IMG/VR virus record: IMGVR_UViG_3300020450_001133
Source of the DNA: a virus
Taxonomy: Duplodnaviria; Caudoviricetes
Reading direction: 5' to 3' (one strand)
Length of the DNA stretch: 64,000 bases
The notes beneath the pieces were generated by a model. The model ran no database searches, was not told where the DNA came from, and saw only the letters and a list, made by a program, of their open reading frames with translations. Below are positions 12,242 through 45,647 of the stretch, in pieces (the stretch's first letter is position 1; every line of letters begins with the position of its first letter). A program made the translations under genes and the position numbers.

Positions 12242-12303
12242 CTCCTATATTTAGCAAGTTAATCTATTCCAACTTTTAAAACCCTAATGGCGAATTAAAA
12301 GTT
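12242..12303 (-). promoter_or_regulatory. ROSE-type RNA thermometer leader of hsp20
   Basis: CUUGCU-AAAUAU-AGGAG hairpin (UUGCU with bulged G opposite the SD) at 12242-12258; upstream 9-bp hairpin around TTCGCCATTAGGG. Confidence 0.7.
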
Positions 12304-12304
12304 C

Positions 12305-12594
12305 GCGTGTGAGGTCGTTTCTGTTAGTATGTGTCTGTATCTCCTCACGACACTTGTCCATCTTCTTGGTTTCTTTTGATGTTACCATCTCCAGTCCTTT
12401 GTTGGTGGACCCAATCATGTATATACTTCTTAGTCTGTTACCATTCGGTTTATTTCACTTACGATCCTTAAACCTTGTGTATCTTCCCAGTTGTTTATAC
12501 AAGGCATTTCTGGTTGTCCTAGTTGTACAGTAGACATTAGTCTCTTACGATTCCAATGCCCTTGCACTTCTTTGTCCTTCCTTAAAATGCAAAG
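12305..12594 (-). ncRNA. Candidate ~290-nt structured RNA
   Basis: Several stems and GUAA loops seen by eye downstream of the promoters at 12596-12643; no convincing SD-led ORF. Confidence 0.35.
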
Positions 12595-12613
12595 ATATTT
12601 ATAATCTATATGT

Positions 12614-12643
12614 ATTATATAGTACTTTTTTGGCAAAAATCAA
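12614..12643 (-). promoter_or_regulatory. sigma70-type promoter; a TATAAATA late-type element lies just downstream at 12596-12603
   Basis: TTGATT-18-TATAAT. Confidence 0.65.
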
Positions 12644-12720
12644 CCTTTTTTGACATCTTTTTTATATTTTTTCATTAAAAACTATTATTATTGGGCCTTT
12701 TGCTAGGTATAAGTAATTGT

Positions 12721-12957
12721 ATGCAACAAGACAAATTTGCAAAAATAATTCTAATATCCGACTTATTAAAGGATAAAGAAGCAAAAGAAGAAGAACTTGC
12801 ATATTACGAAAAAGTAATGCAAGAACTCCTGGTTAAAATGCATATGGTTAAAAATGAAATAAACTTAACCAACACAATTATAGATGTTATAAAAAACGAA
12901 AAAGCGGACATACTACAACAGTTTATAGAATCTAAAGACAACACTAGAGTAATATAA
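12721..12957 (+). CDS. Hypothetical coiled-coil protein
   Basis: MQQDKFAK...; start reassigned (AGGT upstream). Confidence 0.55.
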   Translation: MQQDKFAKIILISDLLKDKEAKEEELAYYEKVMQELLVKMHMVKNEINLTNTIIDVIKNEKADILQQFIESKDNTRVI

Positions 12958-13018
12958 ATCCATATATCGAAAAACATCTTGTATTCACCCTCCCTGTGAA
13001 TACTTGGGGAGAAAACAA

Positions 13019-13270
13019 ATGAATACGAGAAAGCGACATAGAATCATCTCGACATTAAAAGCCTGTACATGGCGTGTACTTGCGTCTGCTGACACCTTTC
13101 TAATTGGTTTCTTATTAACAGGTAGTGCGGCTATTGGTGCCAGTATTGCTAGTATAGAAGTATTAACTAAAATGTTCTTATACTATTGGCATGAAAGAAT
13201 GTGGGAAAAGCCAAAGATTAATATGTTTGTTATGCAGTCTTATAAAAGAATAGGGTCCTATATAAAATAA
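13019..13270 (+). CDS. DUF2061-family membrane protein
   Basis: LKACTWRVLASADT...EVLTKMFLYYWHERMW; GGGGAG SD. Confidence 0.75.
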   Translation: MNTRKRHRIISTLKACTWRVLASADTFLIGFLLTGSAAIGASIASIEVLTKMFLYYWHERMWEKPKINMFVMQSYKRIGSYIK

Positions 13271-13314
13271 AACCCTATCCAAAGTTATTAATAACGTAAA
13301 GGACTTCTAATTAC

Positions 13315-13959
13315 TTAGAATGATTTGCTAACTGAAAATACGAAAGTATCTTCGTCTGCAAGTCCTGAGCCGTCTTCAGCGGCAAAGTCTACATAAGCAA
13401 CTGTTCCTTCAATACCCATAGGTAAATCAAAACTTCTACTTACTGACCAATTATCGCCTACAGTATCCCAAGAACCATAAGACACATCAACTGCGTCCAT
13501 TACGTTATATGAGACTTCTGTATAGTCGTTGAAGTCATCGTTTCCGATGAAATGTGAGACAGACAAGTCTTTCCATGTTCCTGAAATATAAACTTCAGAA
13601 CCATCTAAAGCACCATCACCACTATATGCATAATCGATGTAACCAACGTCAAGACTAATGTCATTGCCTATTGATCCAGCCCAACCTACATATAGGTCAG
13701 TTTCTCTGTCTGCATCACTGCCAACATAAGAAACTTCTGATGCCCAAACTCCAGCATAAATGCCTTTACCTGCGTCTACATGTAGACCCATTGATAAAGC
13801 ACTATCGCCTTCTGTTTGAGATTGTCCTCTGAAAATGTAGTCACTTCCGTAACCAACACTTCCACTCACTGAAGCCGCTTGGGCTCCGAATGCCATAATA
13901 GACAATAGTATAATTACTAAAGCCTTATATCCATTCTCAATACTGATTAAATTTTTCAT
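13315..13959 (-). CDS. TorF-family putative outer-membrane porin
   Basis: Signal peptide, SDYIFRGQSQT, GIYAGVWAS, ETDLYVG, C-terminal Phe. Confidence 0.8.
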   Translation of the reverse strand: MKNLISIENGYKALVIILLSIMAFGAQAASVSGSVGYGSDYIFRGQSQTEGDSALSMGLHVDAGKGIYAGVWASEVSYVGSDADRETDLYVGWAGSIGNDISLDVGYIDYAYSGDGALDGSEVYISGTWKDLSVSHFIGNDDFNDYTEVSYNVMDAVDVSYGSWDTVGDNWSVSRSFDLPMGIEGTVAYVDFAAEDGSGLADEDTFVFSVSKSF

Positions 13960-14036
13960 TTAATCCTCCTTCTTATTATTATATTACTATGCTACAACAG
14001 ACAATAATACTGCCTGTTTTGTCACAGTAATCTATT

Positions 14037-14065
14037 ATTATACACAAAGTAGGAATATATGTCAA
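14037..14065 (-). promoter_or_regulatory. sigma70-type promoter of the porin gene
   Basis: TTGACA-17-TATAAT. Confidence 0.8.
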
Positions 14066-14069
14066 CCTT

Positions 14070-14111
14070 TTATCCAATAAATATCAACAAGTTATCCACA
14101 GGATATTAACA
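14070..14111 (+). repeat. Four 9-mers at 11-bp phasing, including one perfect DnaA box
   Basis: TTATCCAAT, ATATCAACA, TTATCCACA, ATATTAACA starting at 14070, 14081, 14092, 14103. Confidence 0.5.
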
Positions 14112-14402
14112 ATATTCTAGTTTATATGGAAATTAAAAAAGTGTGTTTTTTGATTGGAGACTTATACTTATCTAATAAATGTGTTTGGATTTTGTTTGGA
14201 TAATGAGAATACCTTTAGAAAAAAGTGTTACTCATTTACAACACTCTCTTCTATTAGATTGGCTGAGTTGCTTCTACGTCTACTTGAATGTACTATTTCA
14301 ACGTCTAATCCAACAAAACCACAATAAACGCCGAACACAATATTAATGATTATCTGTTTGTGTTCTTTCTTCCATATGTGTTTTCAATCAATCATAAAAA
14401 AA

Positions 14403-14420
14403 GCACACCCGAAGGTGTGC
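14403..14420 (-). terminator. Rho-independent terminator
   Basis: GCACACC-TTCG-GGTGTGC + U-tract; identical to the hairpin at 25634. Confidence 0.88.
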
Positions 14421-14451
14421 TTTTACTTAACCGTATTAGGTTATTTGCTAC

Positions 14452-14715
14452 TTAAGAAGTGGCAAGTGATTTGTACCCTGCGGCAATAACGGCTCTAGAA
14501 GCAGTACCTAGTCTGTAAACATTTCTAGTTCTACCTTTAGTGTCAGTTACCGTGTTAAGGTAAATTGGATAACCTTTGAAACGTAGTGATTGAATCACTG
14601 CTTGTGGGTTACCAGCACCAAAATGTGCTTTGATTTGAGCTGAACTTAAAGTTCTGCCTTCTTGTAGAGCTGAAAGTACTTTCATCTCTTTACTTACGAA
14701 TGTTGTTGTAGTCAT
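14452..14715 (-). CDS. Small winged-HTH-like phage DNA-binding protein
   Basis: KVLSALQEGRTLSSAQI..FGAGNPQAVIQSLRFKGYPIY; AGGAGG SD before the ATG at 14715. Confidence 0.7.
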   Translation of the reverse strand: MTTTTFVSKEMKVLSALQEGRTLSSAQIKAHFGAGNPQAVIQSLRFKGYPIYLNTVTDTKGRTRNVYRLGTASRAVIAAGYKSLATS

Positions 14716-14810
14716 ATGACCTCCTAATTTCAACAAACCAACTAATCTAAATATAAAATTTTTCATAGTCTTTTTAATTATGTTAAGGACAATTCCTTAA
14801 CTTACTCACT

Positions 14811-14838
14811 ATTATACGTCTTTTGTTTTCAATGTCAA
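14811..14838 (-). promoter_or_regulatory. sigma70-type early promoter; an 8-bp hairpin (14782-14801) follows near +1
   Basis: TTGACA-16-TATAAT; GTTAAGGA-ATTG-TCCTTAAC. Confidence 0.8.
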
Positions 14839-15260
14839 CCTTTTTTTGACATTAAATATGTTTCGTTATGAATCCACTTGTTTTTCTTGATAAATCCCCA
14901 TTCTCTAACACGTGGACCTACAAAAAATAATGTCCAAACGTCAACACCAGGCTCTAATTCTATACGGTGTAATGACTTACTACCAGCAAATCTCATACTT
15001 CCTGCTTTACGCCAAAACTTTCCTTTGGGTGTGTATTCCCAATATCCACCTTTAAGTATGATTGTGAAGTAACTCCAAGGATGGTCATGTAGGTCATCTG
15101 GGTCACCTTTATGAAAATTATGTAGGAAAAAATTAAAAGGGAACCATTTTCTATCTTTTAGGAATACATAATACCTAGTTAGATATGGTTCTTGGTGTAT
15201 TCGGTCCAGTATTATTCGTTTTCTACCAAACCTTTCTAGTAGATTAAGAAGAATTTTCAT
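14835..15260 (-). CDS. Cupin-fold phage protein
   Basis: LHNFHKGDPDDLHDHPW...GGYWE...LHRIEL; start reassigned to MKILLN. Confidence 0.7.
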   Translation of the reverse strand: MKILLNLLERFGRKRIILDRIHQEPYLTRYYVFLKDRKWFPFNFFLHNFHKGDPDDLHDHPWSYFTIILKGGYWEYTPKGKFWRKAGSMRFAGSKSLHRIELEPGVDVWTLFFVGPRVREWGFIKKNKWIHNETYLMSKKG

Positions 15261-15690
15261 GTTCTGCAACTCTCTGTCTGAGACTGGTACTGCTAAAACT
15301 ATGGTCTCTGCCATTGAATACTAATTTAATATTCCTGTCTTTGCAGATTTGCTTACCAGTGAATTGTTTATCTTTGTATTCAACTCCTAACACTCTAACA
15401 TTTATAGGAAGTGTTAAAAGTAAATCCTCTAAATCTTGCTCTGTTGCGTAACATACTATTTCATCTACATATTTTACAGCCGCCAACTGTATTTGTCTTT
15501 CTACTAAACTTTGTACTGGCGGATTTTTACTGTCTGGTCTGTCTATTGTAGGATCAGTTTGCAATCCTACTATCAAAAAATCACAATGTCTTTTTGCTTC
15601 TTCAAGCATTGTGATATGACCTGCATGTAACAAATCGAATGTACTACAAGTAAATCCTATTTTGCCACAATCTTTATAACTGAGTCTCAT
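15244..15690 (-). CDS. Cytidylyltransferase (TagD-like, HIGH superfamily)
   Basis: STFDLLHAGH, LIVGLQTD, KYVDEIV, FSSTSLR. Confidence 0.88.
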   Translation of the reverse strand: MRLSYKDCGKIGFTCSTFDLLHAGHITMLEEAKRHCDFLIVGLQTDPTIDRPDSKNPPVQSLVERQIQLAAVKYVDEIVCYATEQDLEDLLLTLPINVRVLGVEYKDKQFTGKQICKDRNIKLVFNGRDHSFSSTSLRQRVAEHENSS

Positions 15691-16127
15691 GCAAAGTCCT
15701 TTAACATTTTTTTGATTTCTAATGCGTGTTGTTCTTCTTGTCCAATTTGTCCTCTAGCATATTCTTCTAAATACACACTGGCACCTTCTACTTCAGAAAG
15801 TAGTTCTTTATATAAATTAACTGCATGAGTTTCATGTTCTAAACTTTCTTGTAATATTTGAACAATGCTATGGTCATGTGATTCCACAATTGGTGCTATA
15901 ACTTGACTAGGATGTCCGTCTAAGCCTGTAATTAATTCTCCGGCTTGTAAGGCATGTTGTAAACTTTCATTTGCTTGTTCTTGCAAAAATGTTACAATAG
16001 GAATCCTGTAAGGTCCAGTAATCATTAACGAACTATGTGCGTATCTGACAACTCCAGCCATTTCATATTCCACTATTGAATTAAGTATCTCACATACTTT
16101 ACTTTGGTTTAATTCTTTCAATTCCAT
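15687..16127 (-). CDS. Bacterioferritin/ferritin-like protein
   Basis: E..Y, ESLQH, LEHE, EEQH diiron-type ExxH motifs in a four-helix pattern. Confidence 0.75.
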   Translation of the reverse strand: MELKELNQSKVCEILNSIVEYEMAGVVRYAHSSLMITGPYRIPIVTFLQEQANESLQHALQAGELITGLDGHPSQVIAPIVESHDHSIVQILQESLEHETHAVNLYKELLSEVEGASVYLEEYARGQIGQEEQHALEIKKMLKDFA

Positions 16128-16897
16128 TATTCTCCGTTATAATAATGAAGACGTTCTATATCATCTTCACTGGTCTCATCACCATATTGTATTTCAATAA
16201 TGTGACATGGTTTATCATTTCTATTAACAATTTGATGCCAATCATTTGCTTTCACATGAAAATTATCATCTTGTTTAAGAGTTACATTTGTAAAGTTGTC
16301 TGGATTACTAGCACTATACTTTACTTCGCATTCTCCTTTACTGACAAACCATATTTCACTTCTTTTAAAGTGACGTTGATAACTGATACCTTTCCCTGGT
16401 TCAATTATCAACTCCTTAACTTTTACTACTTCATCTTGGAACAAATCACTAAATTCGCCCCAAACCCTTCTAGTAGTTGGATATTGCCATTCCTTTAGTA
16501 TCCAACTGCTACTGTTTGATTTATTGGAACCTCCAACACCAAACACAAATTCAACGCCTTCAACAATCATTTCTGGAATGTTATCTTTTGTTCTATCACC
16601 TCCGTTGCAAAAGATAATTTCTGCATGTTCATATGCCTTCTTGGCATTTTCCAGAGCCTCAACTGCTGAGCCGTCTTTATCATCGAAACCCCAAACATTG
16701 TCTACCATGTCCATTGTTTCTAGAATTCTTGCCCTCTCTTCGAAAGGCATAAAGGGCCTGCCTTTTTTTCTTGTGAGCCACTCATCGCTATTAAGTGCTA
16801 CAACTAGTTTGTCTCCTAATTGTTTTGCTCCTTCTAAGTAGTCTATATGTCCAGAATGCAGTGGATCAAATCCACCTGATACGACTACTACTTTCAT
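16127..16897 (-). CDS. Bifunctional cytidylyltransferase (RfaE/HldE-like) + mannose-6-P isomerase-type cupin
   Basis: SGGFDPLHSGH, NSDEWLTRKKG, NGGDRT; C-terminal RVWG...QRHFKRSEIW...WHQIVN. Confidence 0.85.
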   Translation of the reverse strand: MKVVVVSGGFDPLHSGHIDYLEGAKQLGDKLVVALNSDEWLTRKKGRPFMPFEERARILETMDMVDNVWGFDDKDGSAVEALENAKKAYEHAEIIFCNGGDRTKDNIPEMIVEGVEFVFGVGGSNKSNSSSWILKEWQYPTTRRVWGEFSDLFQDEVVKVKELIIEPGKGISYQRHFKRSEIWFVSKGECEVKYSASNPDNFTNVTLKQDDNFHVKANDWHQIVNRNDKPCHIIEIQYGDETSEDDIERLHYYNGE

Positions 16898-17325
16898 TAG
16901 AAGTTACCACGACTTCTCTGCATAGCGGCTATCCTTTCGTTGTATTCTCTTACTCGCCTTGTTTTACGTTTGGACTTCATCCATTTTTGACCAGTGGGCA
17001 TGTATTGTTTAAAATCGCCTCTTGCTTCGGCTTCTCTAACATACTTGTCCCATCTCTTTTTGGCTTGTTTCTTTTTACGATTTCTTTTTGCACTAGGCTT
17101 TTCGTAATATTGTTGCTTTGCTAATTCCTTTTGGAATTCTGCTTTTTCTAATCTCTTTTTCAAAACTCTTAATGCCTTATTCACGTCGTTGTTTCGAACT
17201 TCAATAGAACTATTGAATTTGTCCAGATAATGTTTATCTTTCTTAGGTTGTTCTTTCCTTTTATTGGAGTTCCAACCTTGCGTTATCTTTCTACTTTGCT
17301 GTCTGCCTTGCGATTTATTACTCAA
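16897..17325 (-). CDS. rpsU: Ribosomal protein bS21 with N- and C-terminal basic extensions
   Basis: IEVRNNDVNKALRVLKKRL...YYEKPSAKRNRKK core. Confidence 0.82.
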   Translation of the reverse strand: MSNKSQGRQQSRKITQGWNSNKRKEQPKKDKHYLDKFNSSIEVRNNDVNKALRVLKKRLEKAEFQKELAKQQYYEKPSAKRNRKKKQAKKRWDKYVREAEARGDFKQYMPTGQKWMKSKRKTRRVREYNERIAAMQRSRGNF

Positions 17326-18590
17326 CTTTTACCTCTAATTTTTATTTTATAATCTTTATCCGATTTTTCATTACCGTTAGTATAAACGAAAACAGGGTAA
17401 GTGTCAACATCTTTTGTTGGATATTTGTTGAATCTCACCGTTTTGACCCCATTTTCTTTTAGTTTAGGTGCTCTGTACATAATGTTGTGTAAACTGTTTT
17501 CTACTATGGATTTTAATCCTCTAGCACCAGTTTTTGTTTTACTAGCCAGTTTTGATATATCATCTATGTACTCATCATTAAACTCTAATTCTATATCATC
17601 AAACTCTAAAAGTTTTTTAACTTGTGGAATAACACTTGCTTTTGATGATTTTAAAATTGTTTTCATATCGGATTGTGATAATGGTTCTAAAGGTACAATG
17701 TTTGGTAATCTACCAACAAGTTCTGGAATGAGACCATAACTGATTAAATCGTCATGCTCTACTTTGTGTTGCCAATTGTCTTTTTTGGTTGTTGATTTTA
17801 ATTGTTTGTTGAATCCTATGTTCTTTTTGTTTGCCTTAGTGTTTATTTGTTTTTCTAAACCTACAAATGCACCACTACATATAAACAATACATTTGTTGT
17901 ATCAAACTCTACATATTGGTCCATACGTTTTGAACCGTTAGAAGATACTTTAACTACTGTACCTTCAATTAATCTTAGGAGTGCTTGTTGTACACCTTGT
18001 CCACTAATGTCCTTTGTGCCGGTGTTAGACTCGCCCTTACGAGCCTTTTTATCTATTTCATCTATGAATACAATACCTTTTTGTGCTAGTTCTAAGTTCC
18101 AATCGCACATATTAAGTAAACGTTCAAGCATACTTTCAACATCTTCCCCAACATAACCTGCTTCTGTTAATGTTGTAGCATCAGCAATAGCAAAAGGTAC
18201 ACTTAATTTATCTGCAAGTGTCTTTGCTAATAAAGTTTTACCTGTTCCTGTATTACCCAATATAATAATGTTACTTTTTTCTATATCAGTTTCACTATCA
18301 TTGTAAATTGTTTTGTAATGATTGTATGCACATACAGATAATATTTCTTTTGCATACTCTTGGCTAATTACATATTCATCAAGATGTGCTTTGATTTCTT
18401 CTGGAGTTGGGATATCTTCGAAGGATAAGTCTTCTAATGTATCTTCTTCATTGATAATTTTATGACTGATGTTAATACATTCGTTACAGATGTAAGAATT
18501 AGGACCTGCTATTAACTTTTTTACTTCAGTTCGCTTTTTACCACAAAAACTACAACTTAGATTTTGTTCGTTGTCTCTATCACCGGGCAT
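17322..18590 (-). CDS. clpX: ATP-dependent unfoldase ClpX
   Basis: CSFC..CNEC Zn domain, GNTGTGKT, EAGYVGEDVE, FIDEIDK, GVQQALL, IGF loop, TGARGL. Confidence 0.95.
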   Translation of the reverse strand: MPGDRDNEQNLSCSFCGKKRTEVKKLIAGPNSYICNECINISHKIINEEDTLEDLSFEDIPTPEEIKAHLDEYVISQEYAKEILSVCAYNHYKTIYNDSETDIEKSNIIILGNTGTGKTLLAKTLADKLSVPFAIADATTLTEAGYVGEDVESMLERLLNMCDWNLELAQKGIVFIDEIDKKARKGESNTGTKDISGQGVQQALLRLIEGTVVKVSSNGSKRMDQYVEFDTTNVLFICSGAFVGLEKQINTKANKKNIGFNKQLKSTTKKDNWQHKVEHDDLISYGLIPELVGRLPNIVPLEPLSQSDMKTILKSSKASVIPQVKKLLEFDDIELEFNDEYIDDISKLASKTKTGARGLKSIVENSLHNIMYRAPKLKENGVKTVRFNKYPTKDVDTYPVFVYTNGNEKSDKDYKIKIRGKS

Positions 18591-19426
18591 TATTTCCTCG
18601 TAACATAATTTGTATCTGTTGTGTCATCATCTGTGTCGTTTGGTAATGGTACTGCCCAAAAGCCTCCCAACTGTTTATTTACATCTTCTTCGCTTAATTC
18701 CTGTAACATCTTGAGTATTTCATCAGTGGATAAATCATTTACATTCATTTCACTATTTGCTATTAATGTTGCCGCAGTTCTAAGGTCTCCTGTGTTAGGC
18801 AATTCTACTCTTACTGCACGTCTAGGACCTTCAACAATCTTTTCTTTAACCGGTCTCTGTTCTAATTTGTTTTCTAACTCTGCAACTAAGGCTGTGAGTC
18901 TATCTATTTCTCTATTGTCAGTTCTTACAACAACTCTTTCAGGACCTTGTATAAGTTTTTCTACAACTTTTTCTACGGGTACTTCTACCTTTACTTCTTT
19001 TTCAACAATTTTTTCTACAATCTTTTCAACAGGTACTTCTACTTTTATTTCTTTTTCAACTATTTTTTCAACAGGTACTTCTACTTCTTTGATAACTTCA
19101 ACTTCTTTGATTACTTCTACTGGAACTTCTTTGATTACTTCGACGGGAACTTCGACGACTCGTTCTGGTCCTGGCACTTCGACGATTCGTTCTGGTCCTG
19201 GGACCTCTTTTTCGATAGTGACCAACTTCTCCTCTGGGACAAGGATCTCCTTCTCAACTGTGACAACCTTTTCGACCTCAACTTGCACTTCCTTAGGCTT
19301 TTTAGCCAGTTCGTTTTCTAAATGTTCTATTTGATCCAAAGCATCATCTAACATTCCTAATGTGTTAGCATACTTTGTATTTAATACATTTATTGCTTCT
19401 TTAACTGTTATCTTCTTTTTTGCCAT
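18590..19426 (-). CDS. Repeat protein with VEVP/EKIVE tandem repeats
   Basis: ~110 aa of (V/I)EK(I/V)VE, EVPVE and VPGPER repeats. Confidence 0.7.
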   Translation of the reverse strand: MAKKKITVKEAINVLNTKYANTLGMLDDALDQIEHLENELAKKPKEVQVEVEKVVTVEKEILVPEEKLVTIEKEVPGPERIVEVPGPERVVEVPVEVIKEVPVEVIKEVEVIKEVEVPVEKIVEKEIKVEVPVEKIVEKIVEKEVKVEVPVEKVVEKLIQGPERVVVRTDNREIDRLTALVAELENKLEQRPVKEKIVEGPRRAVRVELPNTGDLRTAATLIANSEMNVNDLSTDEILKMLQELSEEDVNKQLGGFWAVPLPNDTDDDTTDTNYVTRK

Positions 19427-38188: not shown

Positions 38189-38196
38189 AATATTAT

Positions 38197-38779: not shown

Positions 38780-38806
38780 CCTTTTTTTCACTTTTTTTGG
38801 TAAAAA

Positions 38807-38881
<75 letters not shown>

Positions 38882-38886
38882 ATGAG

Positions 38887-38962: not shown

Positions 38963-38966
38963 CCGG

Positions 38967-39092: not shown

Positions 39093-39098
39093 ATGTTT

Positions 39099-39126
39099 AT
39101 TATACTGATTATGAATTAAATGTCAA
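39099..39126 (-). promoter_or_regulatory. sigma70-type promoter of the ncRNA-tRNA unit
   Basis: TTGACA-16-TATAAT. Confidence 0.8.
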
Positions 39127-39371
39127 GAACTTTGTTTGACTTCGCTGAATGCATGTTTGAGTTTTATTTGTTCTACAAACTCTGATATGTTGTCTATTTC
39201 TTCTAGTTTTATTAATGCTTCTTTAGGAGTCATCTCTCCTACTCTTGCTACTGTGGTTGCTAAATTTATTAAATCGTGTCTACCTATATTATGCTTTTGA
39301 CAGATTACTTGAACATCAGGTTCTTTTTGCTCTTGCTGGTCTTGTGATTTTATTCTAGTAATTTTTGGCAT
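39123..39371 (-). CDS. Hypothetical protein
   Basis: 82 aa coupled ORF. Confidence 0.5.
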   Translation of the reverse strand: MPKITRIKSQDQQEQKEPDVQVICQKHNIGRHDLINLATTVARVGEMTPKEALIKLEEIDNISEFVEQIKLKHAFSEVKQSS

Positions 39372-40279
39372 TAAAGACTTATTTTTGTATCATCTGGTAA
39401 TCTAGGTTTGTTAGATTTTGGTTCTTGCTTATCTTTATTTATGCTATCAAACTGTCCTGCGCCTTTAGGATTATGTTTGTTTACATCTTCAAAAGGATTT
39501 ACTTTACCACTTATAAAATCTTCAAAAGGACTAGGTGCAGTATGTACTCCCATTTTCTTTAAGAACCAATCTATTTTACTTGCATGATGCATTCGTGCTT
39601 GTACCATATTTGGATGATTAAAGTCTTGTGGATCATTTGGGTTACCTTCCATATATTTTCTATTTTCAAAAGTTTGGTCATCATTGCTACCAGTTAAGTC
39701 TGCTCTATCATGTAATATTTCAATATTGATTCTTTCAAATATTCCATTCATTCTAGCAATAACACTTACCCATGTATCGTTTTGTGCATTTACACTCCAA
39801 GAGTCACATAATGTAAACCAGTCTGCAGGAATAAGTGGGAAGATTGCAAACGGATGGTCATGATTATCTTTAGGTGCTAAACACTTAAACTGTCCATCAT
39901 ATTTTTGTATTTCTACTTCCCAATCTTTGGTTTGCATAATTGCATCATCATTCCATAGAAATAACCATGCACCAGTGCTAGAGTGACAAAGTAAATTTAC
40001 ATACACATTTAGTTGTTCATATCCCAAAGGCTTAAACACTTTGGCTTTACAGGCACAACCCCATTTTTGCATAAACTCTTCTGCATCATTGTTTACCCAA
40101 TCAATGCTTTCTTGGTCATCTTCATCTACACCCAACATGATTTCAACCTTTGCTGGATTTTTTGCATTCTCTAAAAGGCTTTCTATACTTTTTAGTAATG
40201 CACCACTTTTAACTCTGCCTCTTGTAGGAAGTATTACACTAACTACACTACCTTCATCTAAAACTTTATTATCTGTCAT
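39371..40279 (-). CDS. Glycosyltransferase (GT-A/GT2-like)
   Basis: SVILPTRGR, LGVDEDD, FLWNDDA (DxD-like). Confidence 0.75.
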   Translation of the reverse strand: MTDNKVLDEGSVVSVILPTRGRVKSGALLKSIESLLENAKNPAKVEIMLGVDEDDQESIDWVNNDAEEFMQKWGCACKAKVFKPLGYEQLNVYVNLLCHSSTGAWLFLWNDDAIMQTKDWEVEIQKYDGQFKCLAPKDNHDHPFAIFPLIPADWFTLCDSWSVNAQNDTWVSVIARMNGIFERINIEILHDRADLTGSNDDQTFENRKYMEGNPNDPQDFNHPNMVQARMHHASKIDWFLKKMGVHTAPSPFEDFISGKVNPFEDVNKHNPKGAGQFDSINKDKQEPKSNKPRLPDDTKISL

Positions 40280-40281
40280 AA

Positions 40282-41223
40282 TTAACCTGTTATTAATTTT
40301 CTAATGTTTCCACGGAATGTATAATGTCCTACATGGTTAAGTCCAGTTCTAGGATCTAGGAATACTTCTCCGCCCATTTGTTGCCATAGTCTACAGAATG
40401 TATAATCCTCTGACAAGTAACGTCTACTGTCTGGATCAATCATTGTGTCAAACAATGCGTACATGTGTTTTTCAAACTTCTGATCCACATTTATATCATT
40501 TGCATATTTTAATTCTGGATGTGCATCAAACATTTTTTGAATAACTTCTTTTTGAATACACATGAATCCTGTGCCAGCATCTTTTAATTTTATCAAGTTA
40601 TCTCTAATTTGTATTTGATTTTGTGGATTACCATCTTCGTCTGTAACAAATTCAAAGTTTACAACATAATTAGAACTATGTCCTTCTATAGTTTCAGTTG
40701 TTTCTTCTTCATTACGTCTTGCGGCTTCTATAATACTTTGCCAGTTAATTGCTTTTTTAGGGTAAGCACCAACTGTAATTGGTCTGTCGTATGCAACCAT
40801 TCTAAGTAAGTCATTTGGGTCAAACTCTATGTCGGCATCTATAAAGAATAAATGTGATGCATCAGGGTGTTCCATAAAGAAACTTACTAAGGTGTTACGT
40901 CCTCTAGTAATCAGACTTTCATTTGCCAATGTGCTTACAGTAAATTGAATATCATACTTGTTACAAAGAATTGCTAATCTCATCATACTTCTAAAATAAG
41001 GCTCACCAATTTGTCCACCATAACAAGGAGTTGCAATAAAAATGTGCTTGTTTCTTAATACTTCAATTGGTATTTCAATTTTAGCATCAAGCAATTTATA
41101 TAATACATCATCTTGGTCGGGTGTAACATTTGCTGTAACTTTCTTTTCGTCTGCAACGGGAGTTGTTGCTTTAGATTTTGACTGCTTAGGAGTCTTTGCT
41201 CTACTCTTCTTTCGTTTTGCCAT
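40282..41223 (-). CDS. GT-A-fold phage protein
   Basis: FIATPCYGG, ESLITRGRN, LFFIDADI, AGTGFM, LSEDYTFC, HVGHY. Confidence 0.7.
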   Translation of the reverse strand: MAKRKKSRAKTPKQSKSKATTPVADEKKVTANVTPDQDDVLYKLLDAKIEIPIEVLRNKHIFIATPCYGGQIGEPYFRSMMRLAILCNKYDIQFTVSTLANESLITRGRNTLVSFFMEHPDASHLFFIDADIEFDPNDLLRMVAYDRPITVGAYPKKAINWQSIIEAARRNEEETTETIEGHSSNYVVNFEFVTDEDGNPQNQIQIRDNLIKLKDAGTGFMCIQKEVIQKMFDAHPELKYANDINVDQKFEKHMYALFDTMIDPDSRRYLSEDYTFCRLWQQMGGEVFLDPRTGLNHVGHYTFRGNIRKLITG

Positions 41224-41300
41224 GTGTTATCCTGTAAAAAACTATTTGTGTATTGTACAGTATTTACTCTAAAAGTCAAGTAGAAAGGATAAGTTTTGGT

Positions 41301-41495
41301 TTACTTCTGGTCGGGCTTTCTGGAAATGAACTGATTTAATTTCTCTGCTTCTTTGATAACGTCTTCGGTAGATGGCATAAGGTCAGGTTTGTTAGCCTGT
41401 GCCTGTAAAATTAAACGTGCTTCTTGAATAAGTTCTAATCTTATTTCGTATGGTGTTTTATTAGACAATTTAATTGTTCTCCTACATTTACACAA
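41301..41495 (-). CDS. Small conserved phage protein (start uncertain)
   Basis: KTPYEIRLELIQEA...EDVIKEAEKLNQFI. Confidence 0.55.
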   Translation of the reverse strand: MCKCRRTIKLSNKTPYEIRLELIQEARLILQAQANKPDLMPSTEDVIKEAEKLNQFISRKPDQK

Positions 41496-41504
41496 CTTAT
41501 TTAT

Positions 41505-42221
41505 CTAATTTTTGAATAAAGTACCTCCTTGGTACTTCCTATAACATACGTTTATATCTGAGAAATCTTCTACGGCACAACTTAAAACAACTCTGTCAAC
41601 GTTGCTTAATTCGTTATAACCTCTATGAAAAATCATTGTGTTGTAAAATGCAGGAACTGTTGGTCTGTCCCAACGACAAAGTATTTCTGTATCTTCCATA
41701 TCTGTTTTTGTAATGAAGCCATGTTTCTCATTGTCTCTAGGATCTATATTTTTAAATCTAGGAAATGTTGCCCATTGTCCTTCCATTACTTCAGCATCGC
41801 CAAACACAGGAAAGTTTAATGCACATTGTCTTGTGTGAAACACAGGCCCTTCACAATGCCATCTACTGTTTGCATTAGCAGGTGTTCTCAACATTAATAT
41901 ACTTGAAAACTTTAAGTTCAATGTATCGCCTAAAAATTCTTTCATGCGTTTACTTAAATCAAAATTTACTTCTTCGTATAAATTTACTTCTTTGAAATCA
42001 CGTTTATCTTGTGTGCTGTTTTCTTCTACTTTTATATAACTTTGATACCAGTTAGCACTTAAACTTCTACTTTCTTTGTTTTCAACCTTTTCTTGATTCT
42101 TATCATCTTTTTCTGCTTCATATCTTTGTTGTTCACTAACAAAATATTGCTGTACATCAAAAGGAATCTCAGGCATTTCTGGCACTTCGAAAAAATATGG
42201 TAACTCTATTCTTTGACTCAT
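41505..42221 (-). CDS. Fe(II)/2OG oxygenase-like, paralogue 1
   Basis: WHCEG..CALNFPV..YNTMIFHRG..DRVVLS. Confidence 0.65.
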   Translation of the reverse strand: MSQRIELPYFFEVPEMPEIPFDVQQYFVSEQQRYEAEKDDKNQEKVENKESRSLSANWYQSYIKVEENSTQDKRDFKEVNLYEEVNFDLSKRMKEFLGDTLNLKFSSILMLRTPANANSRWHCEGPVFHTRQCALNFPVFGDAEVMEGQWATFPRFKNIDPRDNEKHGFITKTDMEDTEILCRWDRPTVPAFYNTMIFHRGYNELSNVDRVVLSCAVEDFSDINVCYRKYQGGTLFKN

Positions 42222-42946
42222 TTAAAAAGATTTCCTTCTTGATATACTTTGTGAACTGCATGTATATCTATATTTTCTTGTAATGCAATACTTAAAATAG
42301 TCCTATGTTGATTACAATGTTCATTTACTCCTCTATGTAAATACATTGTATTATAAAAAAATCCGCGATTTAAAACATCACTAACGTAGGTGCCATTTTC
42401 ATAAACTTCCATTTCAGGTACATATTCTGCTTTAACATAACCTTTTTGTTCAACTTGCTCAGGCGGTAAGTCTCCCCAAAGTTTACAATATCCCCATTCT
42501 GCTTTAGTTTTGTTTAGTTCACCTTCAACTAAAAAATTTAATGCACATCTTCTACTACGCAACATTGGGCCTTCACAATGCCACCAACCATTTTGACCAG
42601 GTAATGTTCTTAATAAACTTACACTTGTCATTCTTACAGTAAAAGTATCTTTTGACCATTCCCTTAACAACTTGCTCATTTCGGCATTTTGTTCTTCTGT
42701 CATTCCTGTACTTTCACTTAAAGTTGCACCTTGTGTTTTTTCTGCACCAGTGCCACCAAACCCTTGTAAGTACCAACCTGCTTCTTTAGATGCAGTACGT
42801 CCTTGTTGCAGTTTGTCTAAATAATCTGAGTTCCCATCAAAGATTTGGTCATCTTTATTCATAAGGTCATCTTCTTGATATACATATTTCATTACATCAA
42901 ACGGCAACTCTATCTCTGGTACTTCAAAATAGTAAGGTAAACTCAT
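42218..42946 (-). CDS. Fe(II)/2OG oxygenase-like, paralogue 2
   Basis: WHCEG..CALNFLV..YNTMYLHRG..HRTILS. Confidence 0.65.
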   Translation of the reverse strand: MSLPYYFEVPEIELPFDVMKYVYQEDDLMNKDDQIFDGNSDYLDKLQQGRTASKEAGWYLQGFGGTGAEKTQGATLSESTGMTEEQNAEMSKLLREWSKDTFTVRMTSVSLLRTLPGQNGWWHCEGPMLRSRRCALNFLVEGELNKTKAEWGYCKLWGDLPPEQVEQKGYVKAEYVPEMEVYENGTYVSDVLNRGFFYNTMYLHRGVNEHCNQHRTILSIALQENIDIHAVHKVYQEGNLFK

Positions 42947-42955
42947 ATTAAATAT

Positions 42956-43537
42956 TTATTTGAATAATTTTCCACTTTCATATAAGTTAGAAACTTCTTC
43001 TATATCTTCTCTTATAGCGGCACTAATTACTAATCTATTCCAACCTGTAAAATTAAATACTCTGTGCCAATGCATTGTATTATAAATTGTTGCTTGTCCG
43101 GGTGTCATTCTATGTTCTGCTAAAACTTCCAGGTTTTCATCTTCCCACCATGTAGGTTCTTTTTCATTATTTACTATATCTTCAACTGCACCTCTTGTTG
43201 CCCACTGAACATAACTGCGTTCATAGTCTCCAGCAACCATAAAGTTTAAAGCACACTTCCTGCCAAATGTTCCTGGGCCTTCACTATGCCAAGGACTCGA
43301 TGCATTACACATTGTATTTAAAAGTGTTAAACTTCCAACTGGTATTGTTAATGTATCTTGTAAATATGTTTTTACACTTTCATACCAATTCTCAGGAACT
43401 ACTCTATATTGAAAACTGTTACCTCCAAGTCCTAATCCTGTTGGTGACATATAGTCAGCAGGGTGTTGGACATAAGGCTTATCATCTACATCAAAAGGTA
43501 ATATAAGTTCTGGTATGTCTAGATAGTAGGGTATCAT
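42956..43537 (-). CDS. Fe(II)/2OG oxygenase-like, paralogue 3
   Basis: WHSEG..CALNFMV..YNTMHWHRV..NRLVIS. Confidence 0.65.
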   Translation of the reverse strand: MIPYYLDIPELILPFDVDDKPYVQHPADYMSPTGLGLGGNSFQYRVVPENWYESVKTYLQDTLTIPVGSLTLLNTMCNASSPWHSEGPGTFGRKCALNFMVAGDYERSYVQWATRGAVEDIVNNEKEPTWWEDENLEVLAEHRMTPGQATIYNTMHWHRVFNFTGWNRLVISAAIREDIEEVSNLYESGKLFK

Positions 43538-43552
43538 GCTACTATTTATCGG

Positions 43553-43714
43553 CTAATTTGTCAGTAAACTAGCAATAAAGAGTAAGATAGTGACTGTGCC
43601 TAAGAAAATTGCTAACACAAGATAGGCAAACATAAGAATTCTAAAAGGGGTAAGTTCGAGATTATCGCTTTTCTTTCCGACACCTATTACGGCTTTGAGT
43701 GCCTCTTTAATCAA
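43553..43714 (-). CDS. Small membrane protein (DUF2970-like), 53 aa
   Basis: Manual translation from TTG: MIKEALKAVIGVGKKSDNLELTPFRILMFAYLVLAIFLG... Confidence 0.5.
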   Translation of the reverse strand: MIKEALKAVIGVGKKSDNLELTPFRILMFAYLVLAIFLGTVTILLFIASLLTN

Positions 43715-43983
43715 AAGAATATATTATTCATGTACATAACAGCACCCATAAATCCAAGTGCGGATATTTGAATAATCGTTGCAATTATTATAAACTTAAA
43801 TTGTCTGTCTCCCCACCATTTAAGTTCTGTTTCATACCAATCCTCGATTTGCTCTGGGGTAGCATCGGGTAGATTGGCAAATGTATTGTATATGACTTTT
43901 TCTTTTGGAGAATAGTTTGGAAGAGATTCTACATCTTTAAATATAGGTCTCTTCCAGGAATCATATCCAACTATTTTTTTCAT
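43711..43983 (-). CDS. Small membrane protein
   Basis: 90 aa with C-terminal TM. Confidence 0.55.
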   Translation of the reverse strand: MKKIVGYDSWKRPIFKDVESLPNYSPKEKVIYNTFANLPDATPEQIEDWYETELKWWGDRQFKFIIIATIIQISALGFMGAVMYMNNIFF

Positions 43984-44423
43984 TATAACTCTGACAAATA
44001 CTTGTCCAGTCTGTCTTTATTCATCACAAATGATTTACCGTATTGTCCTGCAAATCTTTTGGTTGCATCATCAACAGTTGCATTGCCAACTTTGATAACA
44101 CCTACCATTGCCATCATTTTATGAGGTGTACATTCATACACATAAACACCTTCAGTGTTTAATGTTACTGAAATGTCTTTGCTCATTGCACCTTTCCAAG
44201 GTGTTGCTCCTGCAGGAGTTAATACTGAAGCGGAGTTATGTGCCATATCCGTTGCTTCAAATTTAACTGTATCTCCGACATTTACAGATAATACAGCAGG
44301 TTCAAAAATCATCATGCCGCCTGCACCGTTGTTTAACATTTTTACTACATGCTCAGCCGCAAAGGTTGGAGCAGATAACATTAACATTAAGAATGCAGTT
44401 GCTATTTTGTGTGTGTTTTTCAT
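43983..44423 (-). CDS. Pseudoazurin-like blue copper protein
   Basis: Signal peptide; VKMLN..FEPA..GDTV..HNS..YECTPH..MVG (H,C,H,M ligands). Confidence 0.88.
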   Translation of the reverse strand: MKNTHKIATAFLMLMLSAPTFAAEHVVKMLNNGAGGMMIFEPAVLSVNVGDTVKFEATDMAHNSASVLTPAGATPWKGAMSKDISVTLNTEGVYVYECTPHKMMAMVGVIKVGNATVDDATKRFAGQYGKSFVMNKDRLDKYLSEL

Positions 44424-45589
44424 TTTATCTCCGGTAATGGATTTCTTGATCCAACTGCTTGTTCAATTGAATCGAATCCGTCTTTTTTAAGTAATTTAAC
44501 TAATCCTCTATTAATTTCATTAATGTTTTGAGGACCGTCAAATATCATTGTTGTAATCATGTGTAGTAAACTAGCACCAGATGTTATTTTCTCATAAGCA
44601 TCTTTGGCACTAAAAATACCACCAACGCCTATTATAGTTATCTTTCCTCTAGTTCTTCTGTACACATGTCTGATAACATTTGTAGAAATACGTTGTAATG
44701 GCAATCCACTCATTGCACCTTTACCTTTGGGTAGCAATCCTTTTTCAGTTGGATATTCCTCTGGTCTATGCTCTGAATTGTATTGTGGTTTTGCAAGGTT
44801 TGTACATACTACACCGTCCATGCCATGTTCAATACAACCATCTACAATGATGTCTATTTCATCTAATGTCATATCAGCCGCAAGTTTTACATAAATTGGT
44901 TTATCACTTATCGGTCTAATTTCTTCGTTTATCCTAGTTAATAATGCATCTAGGTTTTTCTTGTCTACAAATGGTTCACCGTCTTGCGTATTAGGACAAC
45001 TGATGTTTACATCATAGTAGTCACCAATATCTACAAACAGTTTCATTGTTTTCAAGTAATCGTTGATAGACATCTCTAGGTCAAACTCAGGTGTTAGGTT
45101 TGAATTAGCCGCATTGATACCAACACGAAGTCTTCCAAAATCTTCACCTGCTAATCTTTTAGATATTTTTTCTGATCCTTCGTTGTTTAGTCCATACCAT
45201 ACAACGATTGCTTTTGACTTAATCATTCTAAATAATCTTTTACCTGGATTACCTGGGCATATCTCACCTGTGAATGATCCTAGTTCAGCAAGTCCAAATC
45301 CAATTGACGGATATATTTTTGTTAATTCTCCGTCTTTATCAAATCCAGCAGAAAGACCTACAGGGTTTCTATAGTCTATACCGTCTACTGTGATTGCTAA
45401 ACTCTTGTCGTTGTAATCCATTAAAAGACTTGTTAGTCCTCTTGTTATTGGATTACTTCCTAACAACACACCCATACGTTTTAATGAATAGTGTGCTTGT
45501 TCTGGTTCCATTAAAAATATTAATGGTCTAATGGCTCTAAATCCTAACCATAGAATCTTATTTCTGATTCCTACTATAAAGTTTTTCAT
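44420..45589 (-). CDS. pyrD: Dihydroorotate dehydrogenase, class 2-like (quinone-dependent)
   Basis: EPEQAH, NPVGLSAGFDKDG, GLNNEG, NISCPNT, VKLAAD, GAMSG, IGVGGI, GASL. Confidence 0.92.
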   Translation of the reverse strand: MKNFIVGIRNKILWLGFRAIRPLIFLMEPEQAHYSLKRMGVLLGSNPITRGLTSLLMDYNDKSLAITVDGIDYRNPVGLSAGFDKDGELTKIYPSIGFGLAELGSFTGEICPGNPGKRLFRMIKSKAIVVWYGLNNEGSEKISKRLAGEDFGRLRVGINAANSNLTPEFDLEMSINDYLKTMKLFVDIGDYYDVNISCPNTQDGEPFVDKKNLDALLTRINEEIRPISDKPIYVKLAADMTLDEIDIIVDGCIEHGMDGVVCTNLAKPQYNSEHRPEEYPTEKGLLPKGKGAMSGLPLQRISTNVIRHVYRRTRGKITIIGVGGIFSAKDAYEKITSGASLLHMITTMIFDGPQNINEINRGLVKLLKKDGFDSIEQAVGSRNPLPEIK

Positions 45590-45595
45590 ATGCTT

Positions 45596-45647
45596 CTCCT
45601 ATTTTAAGCAAGAAATTTTTTATTCCCTAATGGCGAATAAAAAGTTT
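45596..45647 (-). promoter_or_regulatory. Second ROSE-type leader, upstream of pyrD
   Basis: CUUGCU-UAAAAU-AGGAG hairpin (45596-45612) plus an upstream hairpin with the same TTCGCCATTAGGG core as the hsp20 leader. Confidence 0.7.

What the first reader, a model, noticed from the sequence alone, without database searches (positions are those of the whole stretch)
12242..45647. Duplicated ROSE-type RNA thermometer before both hsp20 and pyrD
Seen: two leaders 33 kb apart share one architecture. An AU-rich hairpin capped by the identical 13-mer TTCGCCATTAGGG (12282-12294, 45625-45637) is followed by CUUGCU-N6-AGGAG (12242-12258, 45596-45612) and then the ATG. Known: U(U/C)GCU with a bulged G pairing to the AGGA SD is the hallmark of ROSE thermometers controlling small heat-shock genes in alpha- and gamma-proteobacteria. 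Inference: a phage thermoregulated regulon has extended to de novo pyrimidine synthesis (and the coupled pseudoazurin). The invariant 13-mer may bind a protein. It also hints at a proteobacterial host.
Basis: partly seen in the sequence, partly recalled or inferred. Interest (0 to 1): 0.8.

Follow-up and report, generated by a model that had tools for sequence, protein, structure and literature searches.

The report
Heat-shock mRNA leader copied onto pyrD
A two-hairpin, ROSE-like mRNA leader that SAR11 bacteria and many marine phages place before their hsp20 and dnaK genes occurs twice in this phage: once before hsp20, and once at the head of an inserted pyrD-cupredoxin cassette, which may put pyrimidine synthesis under heat- or stress-dependent translation.

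Summary
Both leaders are at the stated coordinates on the minus strand.

They belong to a conserved RNA leader family of 97 distinct examples. It has a 5' hairpin with a covarying stem and an invariant cap, CGCCA-NNN-GGG. It also has a 3' hairpin in which CUUGCU faces the AGGAG Shine-Dalgarno sequence, which is the ROSE hallmark.

A covariance model built without window sequences scores the hsp20 leader at 77.5 bits and the pyrD leader at 54.6 bits. Nothing else in the window scores.

The family sits before:
- chromosomal hsp20 of SAR11, behind a sigma32-like promoter;
- hsp20 of the cultured pelagiphages HTVC008M and Mosig;
- hsp20 and dnaK of many uncultured marine phages.

No Rfam model reaches its gathering score (ROSE_3 gives 15.8-20 bits against 43).

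The pyrD copy is the only non-chaperone case. It is the 5' edge of a leader-pyrD-cupredoxin insertion. That insertion is absent from the closest syntenic relative (86% identity) and present in a 90%-identical relative. Other phages' pyrD genes lack the leader.

Thermosensing is inferred, not shown. Folding predicts weaker Shine-Dalgarno occlusion for the pyrD copies. The "13-mer" is really an 8-nt conserved cap plus a variable loop. Its third copy, in nrdA, is a coding coincidence.

This is a new variant of a known kind.

The parts
12233..12304 (-). hsp20 leader. Hairpin I spans 12303-12271 with the cap CGCCATTAGGG at 12292-12282. Hairpin II spans about 12262-12237, with CUUGCU at 12258-12253 facing AGGAG at 12246-12242. 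The ATG is at 12235-12233.
   Evidence: Model R1 scores 77.5 bits, E 2e-18. Rfam ROSE_3 gives 15.8 bits over the same span. Sequence read.
11795..12235 (-). hsp20 gene (146 aa)
   Evidence: Pfam HSP20, E 9.7e-18. It is 41% identical to SAR11 chromosomal Hsp20.
45587..45647 (-). pyrD leader. Hairpin I spans 45647-45613 with the cap at 45635-45625. CUUGCU is at 45612-45607, AGGAG at 45600-45596 and the ATG at 45589-45587. There is no spacer between the two hairpins.
   Evidence: Model R1 scores 54.6 bits, E 4e-12. Sequence read. It is conserved in relative L418 with 4 substitutions, none at family-invariant positions.
44420..45589 (-). pyrD, a dihydroorotate dehydrogenase (389 aa)
   Evidence: Pfam DHO_dh, E 1.4e-57.
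43983..44423 (-). Plastocyanin/azurin-family copper protein. Its start overlaps the end of pyrD, and it is the 3' end of the inserted cassette.
   Evidence: Pfam Copper-bind, E 7.9e-14. pyrD and this gene are also adjacent in L140.
43984..45647 (-). Inserted cassette (leader + pyrD + copper protein). It lies between two small ORFs that are adjacent in the closest syntenic relative, G005.
   Evidence: Synteny with G005 at 86% identity breaks exactly here.
45646..45756 (-). Small hydrophobic ORF2 (36 aa). Its stop codon abuts or overlaps the first bases of hairpin I, marking the upstream edge of the insertion.
   Evidence: Its homologue in G005 is followed directly by ORF3.
43711..43983 (-). ORF3 (90 aa), the downstream edge of the insertion.
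   Evidence: Its homologue in G005 starts 2 nt after ORF2.
46026..46033 (-). TATAAATA, a T4-type late-promoter consensus about 380 nt upstream of the pyrD leader. Contigs from RNA libraries begin just downstream of it.
   Evidence: Sequence. Coverage in three RNA libraries spans 43948-46035 only.
12596..12603 (-). TATAAATA about 290 nt upstream of the hsp20 leader.
   Evidence: Sequence.
55034..55046 (+). Third exact copy of the 13-mer, antisense inside nrdA. It is not a member of the leader family.
   Evidence: R1 finds no leader there. It encodes DPNGE of a conserved DPNGEIS stretch, and G005 differs at two bases of the 13-mer.

Best explanation
Both sites are copies of one conserved 5' leader RNA.

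The leader has two hairpins:
- Hairpin I has a freely covarying stem closed by the invariant cap C-G-C-C-A-N-N-N-G-G-G (C-G, an unpaired G, then two C-G pairs and a 4-nt loop). In most family members it lies at the very 5' end of the mRNA.
- Hairpin II pairs CUUGCU with the AGGAG Shine-Dalgarno sequence and leaves one G unpaired or facing a G. This is the arrangement that defines ROSE thermometers.

The family belongs to the hsp20 gene of SAR11 bacteria. Marine phages carry it along with hsp20 and also use it on dnaK.

The most likely mechanism is inferred, not shown. At low temperature the weak hairpin II hides the ribosome-binding site. Heat opens it, so translation rises. Hairpin I would stabilise the mRNA or nucleate the fold, and its invariant cap may also be recognised by a factor.

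In this phage lineage, a second copy derived from the lineage's own hsp20 leader forms the 5' edge of an inserted pyrD-cupredoxin cassette. That cassette lies inside a late-promoter operon. The copy therefore supplies the cassette's ribosome-binding site and probably couples its translation to the same signal, more leakily.
For: Family and gene association:
- Leaders of hsp20 relatives chosen by protein alone all keep the cap and AACUUGCU-N-AGGAG. R1 finds a leader in 25 of 31 loci with an intact 5' end.
- Pattern scans gave 97 distinct leaders: 86 before hsp20, 9 before dnaK and 2 before pyrD. Pfam confirmed HSP20 and HSP70 on divergent representatives.
- Every extra R1 hit in dnaK contigs precedes an hsp20 gene.

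Structure:
- In hairpin I, 7 of 10 pairs change on both sides. 94% of cells are paired, 0 of 500 shuffles reach that, and slid controls give 37-63%. G-U pairs are present, which points to RNA.
- In hairpin II, the inner pair switches between U-A (69) and A-U (13); 0 of 2000 shuffles match.
- RNAalifold predicts both hairpins on its own.

ROSE likeness: the ROSE_3 model aligns over the whole hsp20 leader.

Host link:
- Four SAR11 genomes have the leader before chromosomal hsp20, behind TTGAAA-N14-CCCATAT, with one copy per genome.
- Pelagiphages Mosig and HTVC008M score 49.3 and 37 bits.

pyrD copy:
- R1 scores it at 54.6 bits.
- The insertion boundaries against G005 are exact.
- L418, 90% identical, keeps it.
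- Its hairpin I is closest to hsp20 leaders of this phage group, 6-9 differences in 35 nt.
- RNA-library contigs identical to the window cross the leader.

Folding: the ROSE-like fold is the minimum-energy fold of the hairpin II segment in 52% of hsp20 leaders, 89% of dnaK leaders and both pyrD copies. The median predicted probability that the Shine-Dalgarno sequence is unpaired at 20 C is 0.18 for hsp20 and 0.07 for dnaK.
Against: - There is no experimental temperature response for any member.
- Rfam ROSE models stay far below threshold: 15.8-20 bits against a gathering score of 43, and nothing for the pyrD leader.
- Hairpin II alone is no more stable than shuffled sequence (z +0.5 and -0.5).
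- The pyrD copies are predicted to be much more open: Shine-Dalgarno unpaired probability 0.37-0.82 and 0.95 in another context. A competing GCUU/AAGC stem leaves the Shine-Dalgarno sequence in a loop.
- A pure thermometer does not explain why the hairpin I cap is invariant in sequence.
- The pyrD leader is internal to a longer transcript, unlike the 5'-terminal position in most members.
- Conservation of the 22 invariant positions between the window and L418 is only marginally unexpected (P about 0.06 at 88% local identity).
Confidence: 0.55

Rival explanations
1. The leader is mainly an operator for the small heat-shock protein itself, as in E. coli, where IbpA binds the ibpA 5' UTR and represses translation until aggregates titrate it away. 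The invariant cap CGCCA...GGG would be the recognition element. On this view pyrD-cupredoxin translation would follow the state of protein folding rather than temperature as such. This could also act together with thermosensing.
For: - IbpA self-repression through its ROSE-like 5' UTR is documented and conserved in gamma-proteobacteria (PMC10474464).
- The cap sequence is invariant while its stem varies freely, which suggests sequence-specific recognition.
- Every genome or contig with the leader that was examined also encodes an Hsp20.
Against: - No binding data exist for any SAR11 or phage Hsp20.
- Which part of the E. coli UTR is recognised was not established from the text read.
- I did not check whether the critical Arg93 of IbpA is present here.
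- The ROSE-type pairing is conserved regardless, and needs no protein.
Confidence: 0.2
2. The leader is a constitutive expression module: a 5' hairpin that stabilises the mRNA plus a strong ribosome-binding site. The pyrD copy is then a recombination by-product or portable translation-start cassette with no sensing role.
For: - In most members hairpin I starts 5-8 nt after a promoter -10 element or TATAAATA. A stabilising 5' stem-loop would sit there, and this role has been proposed for Pseudomonas hairpin I (PMC3669281).
- The pyrD copy forms the exact 5' edge of an inserted cassette.
- Its Shine-Dalgarno sequence is predicted to be mostly open.
Against: - Across two capped samples and model searches, the leader is found only before hsp20 and dnaK. 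A generic module would not be so restricted.
- Nor would it explain the invariance of CUUGCU with its extra G opposite the Shine-Dalgarno sequence.
- SAR11 has only one copy per genome, on hsp20.
Confidence: 0.17
3. The 13-mer is a DNA site for a phage or host DNA-binding regulator, shared by three loci (hsp20, pyrD and nrdA).
For: There are three exact copies in 64 kb. A chance third copy of this composition is expected about 7e-4 times by my calculation.
Against: - The stems contain G-U pairs and the element always lies on the coding strand just before a Shine-Dalgarno sequence.
- The central three bases vary among relatives.
- The nrdA copy has no flanking stem and no CUUGCU. It encodes DPNGE of a conserved DPNGEIS stretch and differs at two bases in G005.
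Confidence: 0.03

Closest known systems
Short ROSE-like RNA thermometers of Pseudomonas ibpA (Rfam ROSE_3, RF02523; PMC3669281)
   Same: - Two hairpins in the 5' UTR of a small heat-shock gene.
- A stable 5' hairpin I that begins close to the transcription start.
- A short 3' hairpin II in which U(U/C)GCU faces the AGGA of the Shine-Dalgarno sequence with one extra G.
- In SAR11, a sigma32-type promoter upstream.
- The ROSE_3 model aligns end to end with the hsp20 leader.
   Different: - It scores only 15.8-20 bits against a gathering score of 43.
- It is AU-rich, and hairpin II lacks the clamping G-C pairs.
- Hairpin I has its own invariant cap, CGCCA-NNN-GGG, which I did not see in the ROSE_3 consensus line.
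- It occurs in SAR11 and phages, also before dnaK, and here before pyrD.
Classical ROSE of rhizobia and other alpha-proteobacteria (RF00435)
   Same: The 3' hairpin reads UGUUGCUCAA..GGAGGA in the two examples fetched, in the same register as CUUGCU..AGGAG here. It also lies upstream of small heat-shock genes in Alphaproteobacteria.
   Different: Classical ROSE has three to four GC-rich hairpins over about 90-100 nt. RF00435 finds nothing in the SAR11 genome searched and hits only 2 of 101 sampled alphaproteobacterial genomes.
E. coli ibpA 5' UTR as target of IbpA self-repression (PMC10474464)
   Same: A ROSE-like leader of a small heat-shock gene that may be bound by its own product. This is a possible reason for the invariant cap.
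   Different: No binding has been shown here. The organisms differ, and I did not compare the UTR sequences.
ROSE-like thermometer on rhlAB of Pseudomonas aeruginosa (mentioned in PMC6761213)
   Same: It is a precedent for a ROSE-type element controlling a metabolic gene that is not a chaperone.
   Different: It is a bacterial chromosomal gene, not a phage auxiliary gene cassette, and it is not a recent copy of the organism's own hsp20 leader.
SAR11-groES RNA motif (Stav et al. 2019, PMC6429828)
   Same: A candidate RNA thermometer on a SAR11 heat-shock gene, with the ribosome-binding site occluded by a stem.
   Different: It sits on a different gene (groES). R1 finds only the hsp20 site in four SAR11 genomes, so the two motifs appear to be distinct. 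I did not see the groES motif's sequence.
Promoter-early stem-loop (PeSL) mobile regulatory cassettes of T4-type phages (recalled from memory, not checked here)
   Same: A short regulatory stem-loop module marks the edge of a shuffled gene cassette.
   Different: PeSLs are described as promoter-plus-terminator units that flank both sides of small ORFs. Here a single translational leader sits on one side only.

Membership tests
ROSE / ROSE-like RNA thermometers | Lies in the 5' UTR directly upstream of a small heat-shock gene | tested here: met
   Met for the hsp20 copy and for 86 of 97 family members. The pyrD copy precedes a dihydroorotate dehydrogenase, so for that copy the feature is not met.
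ROSE / ROSE-like RNA thermometers | Two to four hairpins, with the 3'-proximal one containing the Shine-Dalgarno sequence | tested here: met
   RNAalifold predicts both hairpins. Covariation supports hairpin I strongly and the inner pair of hairpin II. Some members have an optional middle hairpin.
ROSE / ROSE-like RNA thermometers | U(U/C)GCU motif opposite AGGA of the Shine-Dalgarno sequence, with one unpaired G (PMC3669281) | tested here: met
   CUUGCU-N6-AGGAG occurs in both window copies. It is invariant in relatives chosen by protein alone. The isolates read UUUGCU.
ROSE / ROSE-like RNA thermometers | Reaches the gathering score of an Rfam ROSE model | tested here: not met
   There is no gathering-level hit in the window. 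ROSE_3 gives 15.8 bits against 43 for hsp20 and nothing for pyrD. One dnaK leader gives 20 bits, and the SAR11 leaders give none.
ROSE / ROSE-like RNA thermometers | Temperature-dependent melting of the Shine-Dalgarno hairpin and heat-induced translation | not testable with these tools
   Only nearest-neighbour predictions are available. The median ROSE-like fold energy is -4.8 kcal/mol at 20 C and -2.0 at 37 C. The Shine-Dalgarno unpaired probability rises only modestly with temperature.
ROSE / ROSE-like RNA thermometers | Occurs in alpha- or gamma-proteobacteria | tested here: met
   Chromosomal copies occur in four Pelagibacteraceae genomes. Phage copies occur in isolates that infect Ca. 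P. ubique. The host of the window phage itself is not established.
SAR11 / marine-phage hsp20-dnaK leader (model R1, defined here) | Covarying stem capped by CGCCA-NNN-GGG, then CUUGCU-N4-9-AGGAG-N3-10-AUG, and a significant score against a model built without the tested sequence | tested here: met
   hsp20 leader: 77.5 bits. pyrD leader: 54.6 bits. Neither was used to build R1.
SAR11 / marine-phage hsp20-dnaK leader (model R1, defined here) | Precedes a chaperone gene (hsp20 or dnaK) | tested here: inconclusive
   Met for hsp20. Not met for the pyrD copy, which with L418 is the only exception among 97 leaders.

The most novel reading that the evidence does not exclude
SAR11 and its phages share an undescribed ROSE-like leader class. 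Its sequence-invariant cap may make it a portable stress-responsive translation module, read by temperature and possibly by Hsp20 binding. A roughly 350-kb marine phage lineage has redeployed a copy onto an acquired pyrD-cupredoxin cassette. During infection, de novo pyrimidine synthesis would then be translated according to heat or the state of protein folding. That would be a phage rewiring a host stress sensor to control an auxiliary metabolic gene.
Probability: 0.3. Interest if true: 0.75.

Novelty: new variant of a known kind. Interest (0 to 1): 0.6.

Why it matters
SAR11 is among the most abundant bacteria in the ocean, and little is known about how it controls heat-shock genes after transcription.

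The evidence points to a ROSE-type leader on its hsp20 gene that no Rfam model captures at its gathering score. I found no description of it in the paper library searched. Many marine phages have taken it over, with hsp20 and also on dnaK.

The pyrD copy shows such a leader moving as a module onto a metabolic gene cassette. That is a concrete, testable way for phages to tie an auxiliary metabolic gene to an environmental or stress signal.

The leader is also present in cultured pelagiphages (HTVC008M and Mosig) and their host, so it can be tested directly. The invariant cap is an open question in its own right.

Tried and rejected
- **BLAST against isolated phages.** Both window regions, and a leader plus hsp20 of the MNALTRFD group, gave no match.
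- **Rfam at gathering level.** Only two tRNAs were found.
- **Whole genome.** None is held for the window.
- **The 14-mer ATTCGCCATTAGGG in viral contigs.** There were 106 hits. All were unrelated chance matches except L015.
- **The nrdA copy of the 13-mer.** Rejected as part of the system. It has no stem, no CUUGCU and no R1 hit, it codes a conserved peptide, and it differs in G005.
- **A wider SAR11 heat-shock regulon.** R1 finds only hsp20 in four SAR11 genomes. The weaker hits were noise.
- **A leader on pyrD in other phages.** None was found in 17 pyrD loci with intact 5' ends or in five pyrD contigs searched whole. Similarity to the 96%-identical pyrD of L154 starts only 6 nt before the ATG.
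- **pyrD in contigs of hsp20 relatives.** Absent from five contigs, including a 340-kb contig rated 91% complete.
- **Classical ROSE (RF00435).** Not found in SAR11.
- **Stability of hairpin II against shuffles.** Not significant.
- **PHROGs on large ORFs.** Gave no useful phage classification.
- **The six most distant hsp20 relatives (33-39% identity).** They have no Shine-Dalgarno sequence and no leader.

Full report
**Observation.** All genes near both sites are on the minus strand.

- The hsp20 site reads GAACUUUUAAUU-CGCCAUUAGGG-UUUUAAAAGUU..UUAA-CUUGCU-AAAUAU-AGGAG-AUUAAU-AUG.
- The pyrD site reads AAACUUUUUAUU-CGCCAUUAGGG-AAUAAAAAAUUU-CUUGCU-UAAAAU-AGGAG-AAGCAU-AUG.
- Pfam confirms HSP20, dihydroorotate dehydrogenase and a plastocyanin/azurin-type copper protein.
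- The exact 13-mer occurs a third time at 55034-55046 on the plus strand, inside nrdA.

**A conserved family, not a private duplication.**

- hsp20 relatives fetched by protein similarity alone (72-99% identity) all keep a hairpin capped by CGCCA-NNN-GGG, followed by AACUUGCU-N5-8-AGGAGA-N5-AUG. Relatives at 41-46% identity keep CUUGCU..AGGAG with a variant cap.
About 85 hits were AT-rich true leaders. Their downstream proteins form an hsp20 cluster (67, counting the window protein) and a DnaK/Hsp70 cluster (14). The rest were GC-rich chance matches.
- A metagenome scan added 35 more.
- In all there are 97 distinct leaders: 86 before hsp20, 9 before dnaK and 2 before pyrD. Pfam confirmed HSP20 on nine divergent representatives and HSP70 on one.
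- In contigs that carry dnaK, a second leader copy precedes the neighbouring hsp20.

**Structure.**

- In hairpin I, 7 of 10 pairs change on both sides. 94% of cells are paired, no shuffle in 500 reaches the observed values, and sliding the partner drops pairing to 37-63%.
- The stems contain G-U pairs and the element is strand-specific, so the structure is in the RNA.
- The cap is invariant at CGCCA and GGG. The three loop bases take 17 forms.
- In hairpin II the core was fixed by the search pattern and carries no covariation information. The first pair inside it still switches between U-A (69) and A-U (13). Pairing there is 85% against 66% in shuffles, with 0 of 2000 shuffles matching.
- RNAalifold predicts both hairpins independently. 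It places the extra G of CUUGCU opposite a G of the Shine-Dalgarno sequence.

**Objective scoring.**

- Model R1 was built from 21 leaders, none from the window. It scores the hsp20 leader at 77.5 bits and the pyrD leader at 54.6 bits.
- Nothing else in the 64 kb scores above 16 bits. The window therefore has exactly two copies.
- The nrdA 13-mer is not one of them. It encodes DPNGE of a conserved DPNGEIS stretch, has no flanking stem, and differs at two bases in the closest relative.

**Origin and host.**

- The only convincing cellular hits among 185,579 species genomes were four Pelagibacteraceae (SAR11). In each, the leader precedes a chromosomal 148-aa hsp20. It lies directly behind TTGAAA-N14-CCCATAT, which matches the sigma32 consensus as I know it.
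- R1 finds one copy per SAR11 genome, on hsp20 only.
- The cultured pelagiphages Mosig EXVC030M and HTVC008M, both isolated on Ca. P. ubique HTCC1062, have the leader before hsp20 (49.3 and 37.0 bits).
- In most phage members hairpin I begins 5-8 nt after TATAAATA (the T4-type late promoter consensus) or after a sigma70-like -10 element. There it forms the 5' end of the mRNA.
- The window belongs to a group of large phages. Related contigs reach 340 kb, rated 91% complete by CheckV, with one leader copy each.
- In this group the hsp20 leader lies about 290 nt downstream of a TATAAATA.
- The window Hsp20 is 41% identical to SAR11 Hsp20. The host of this particular phage is not established.

**The pyrD copy.**

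- pyrD genes of other phages, up to 96% amino-acid identity, have unrelated upstream sequences. None has the leader.
- The closest syntenic relative, G005, is 86% identical at the DNA level and 99% identical in Hsp20. It has no pyrD. Two small ORFs that are adjacent in G005 are separated in the window by exactly leader + pyrD + copper protein. Hairpin I begins at the stop codon of the upstream ORF.
- A metagenome contig, L418, is 90% identical over 14 kb and carries the same insertion. Its leader has four substitutions in 61 nt. None falls on a family-invariant position, and one restores a C-G pair that is a C-A mismatch in the window.
- The pyrD hairpin I is closest to hsp20 leaders of this same phage group, 6-9 differences in 35 nt. 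It shares the uncommon AUUA loop with the window's own hsp20 leader.
- pyrD and the copper protein travel together in other phages without the leader.
- I infer that a copy of the lineage's hsp20 leader became the translation-start module of an acquired pyrD-cupredoxin cassette.

**Expression.**

- Contigs from three metatranscriptome libraries (two samples, one study) are identical to the window and run through the leader, for example 45295-46013.
- Their coverage is confined to 43948-46035. A DNA library covers the whole stretch.
- A TATAAATA lies at 46033-46026.
- This fits a late transcript that starts about 380 nt upstream of the pyrD leader and includes three small ORFs.
- Contigs cannot prove transcript ends, and the runs were chosen using this region.

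**Mechanism.**

- Shown: two conserved hairpins, the second pairing the ROSE motif with the Shine-Dalgarno sequence, and near-exclusive association with chaperone genes.
- Inferred: temperature-dependent opening of hairpin II.
- Nearest-neighbour folding supports occlusion in typical members. The median Shine-Dalgarno unpaired probability at 20 C is 0.18 for hsp20 and 0.07 for dnaK. The ROSE-like fold energy is about -5 kcal/mol at 20 C and -2 at 37 C.
- Hairpin II alone is no more stable than shuffles.
- The pyrD copies are predicted to be more open: 0.37-0.82 and 0.95. A GCUU/AAGC stem competes. Such models ignore the non-canonical pairs that ROSE hairpins are known to use.
- The invariant cap is not explained by thermosensing. 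An attractive addition is recognition by the small heat-shock protein, as for E. coli IbpA on its own 5' UTR (PMC10474464).

**Comparison with known systems.**

- The closest known kind is the short two-hairpin ROSE-like thermometer of Pseudomonas ibpA (PMC3669281).
- The hallmark features are met. No Rfam ROSE model reaches its threshold. RF00435 finds nothing in the SAR11 genome searched.
- I found no paper in the searchable library describing a ROSE-type leader in SAR11 or in phages. A different SAR11-groES thermometer candidate is known.
- I therefore rate this a new variant of a known kind. It works like a ROSE element. It has its own conserved cap, new carriers (SAR11 and marine phages) and new targets (dnaK and, in one lineage, pyrD).

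Noticed in passing
window 55034-55046 (+), inside nrdA 54089-56464 (-): A third exact copy of TTCGCCATTAGGG lies antisense in the ribonucleotide reductase gene. On the mRNA it is the exact complement of the hairpin I cap of both leaders. It encodes DPNGE of a conserved DPNGEIS stretch and differs at two bases in G005, so it is most likely a coincidence. A loop-to-mRNA pairing was not excluded.
   Followed up: partly
L190, L201, L214, L222, L223, L249 (viral contigs): Marine T4-like phage contigs carry a full-length dnaK (Hsp70, about 620-630 aa) next to hsp20. Each gene has its own copy of the leader, and the cap varies (for example UGCCCGGGUGGGG).
   Followed up: partly
L187:1071-1119: A glutamine riboswitch (glnA RNA, 57.5 bits against a gathering score of 35) lies about 500 nt downstream of the hsp20 leader on a small phage-like contig.
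   Followed up: no
window 12305-12345 (-) and the same position in L110, L111, L115, L116, L121: A conserved block, ACACUAACGAAUGCC..CUCUAC..GCGA, directly precedes hairpin I in the large-phage group only. It could be a promoter of unknown type or part of the roughly 290-nt upstream RNA.
   Followed up: no
window 43948-46035: Coverage by RNA-library contigs begins just after TATAAATA (46033-46026) and ends about 15 nt past the copper-protein stop codon. This suggests a discrete late operon of three small ORFs, pyrD and the cupredoxin.
   Followed up: partly
window 6568-11538, 17322-18590: The phage encodes SufS, SufD-like and SufB proteins, ClpS, ClpX and a weak bL33-like ORF near hsp20. This is a cluster of proteostasis and Fe-S assembly genes.
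   Followed up: no
window 45707-45727 (-): A terminator-like hairpin followed by a T-run lies inside small ORF2, 60 nt upstream of the pyrD leader. It is absent from the G005 homologue.
   Followed up: no
L134-L139: The most distant phage hsp20 relatives (33-39% identity) have AT-rich leaders with no Shine-Dalgarno sequence and no ROSE-like element. This would fit a host that does not use Shine-Dalgarno sequences.
   Followed up: no
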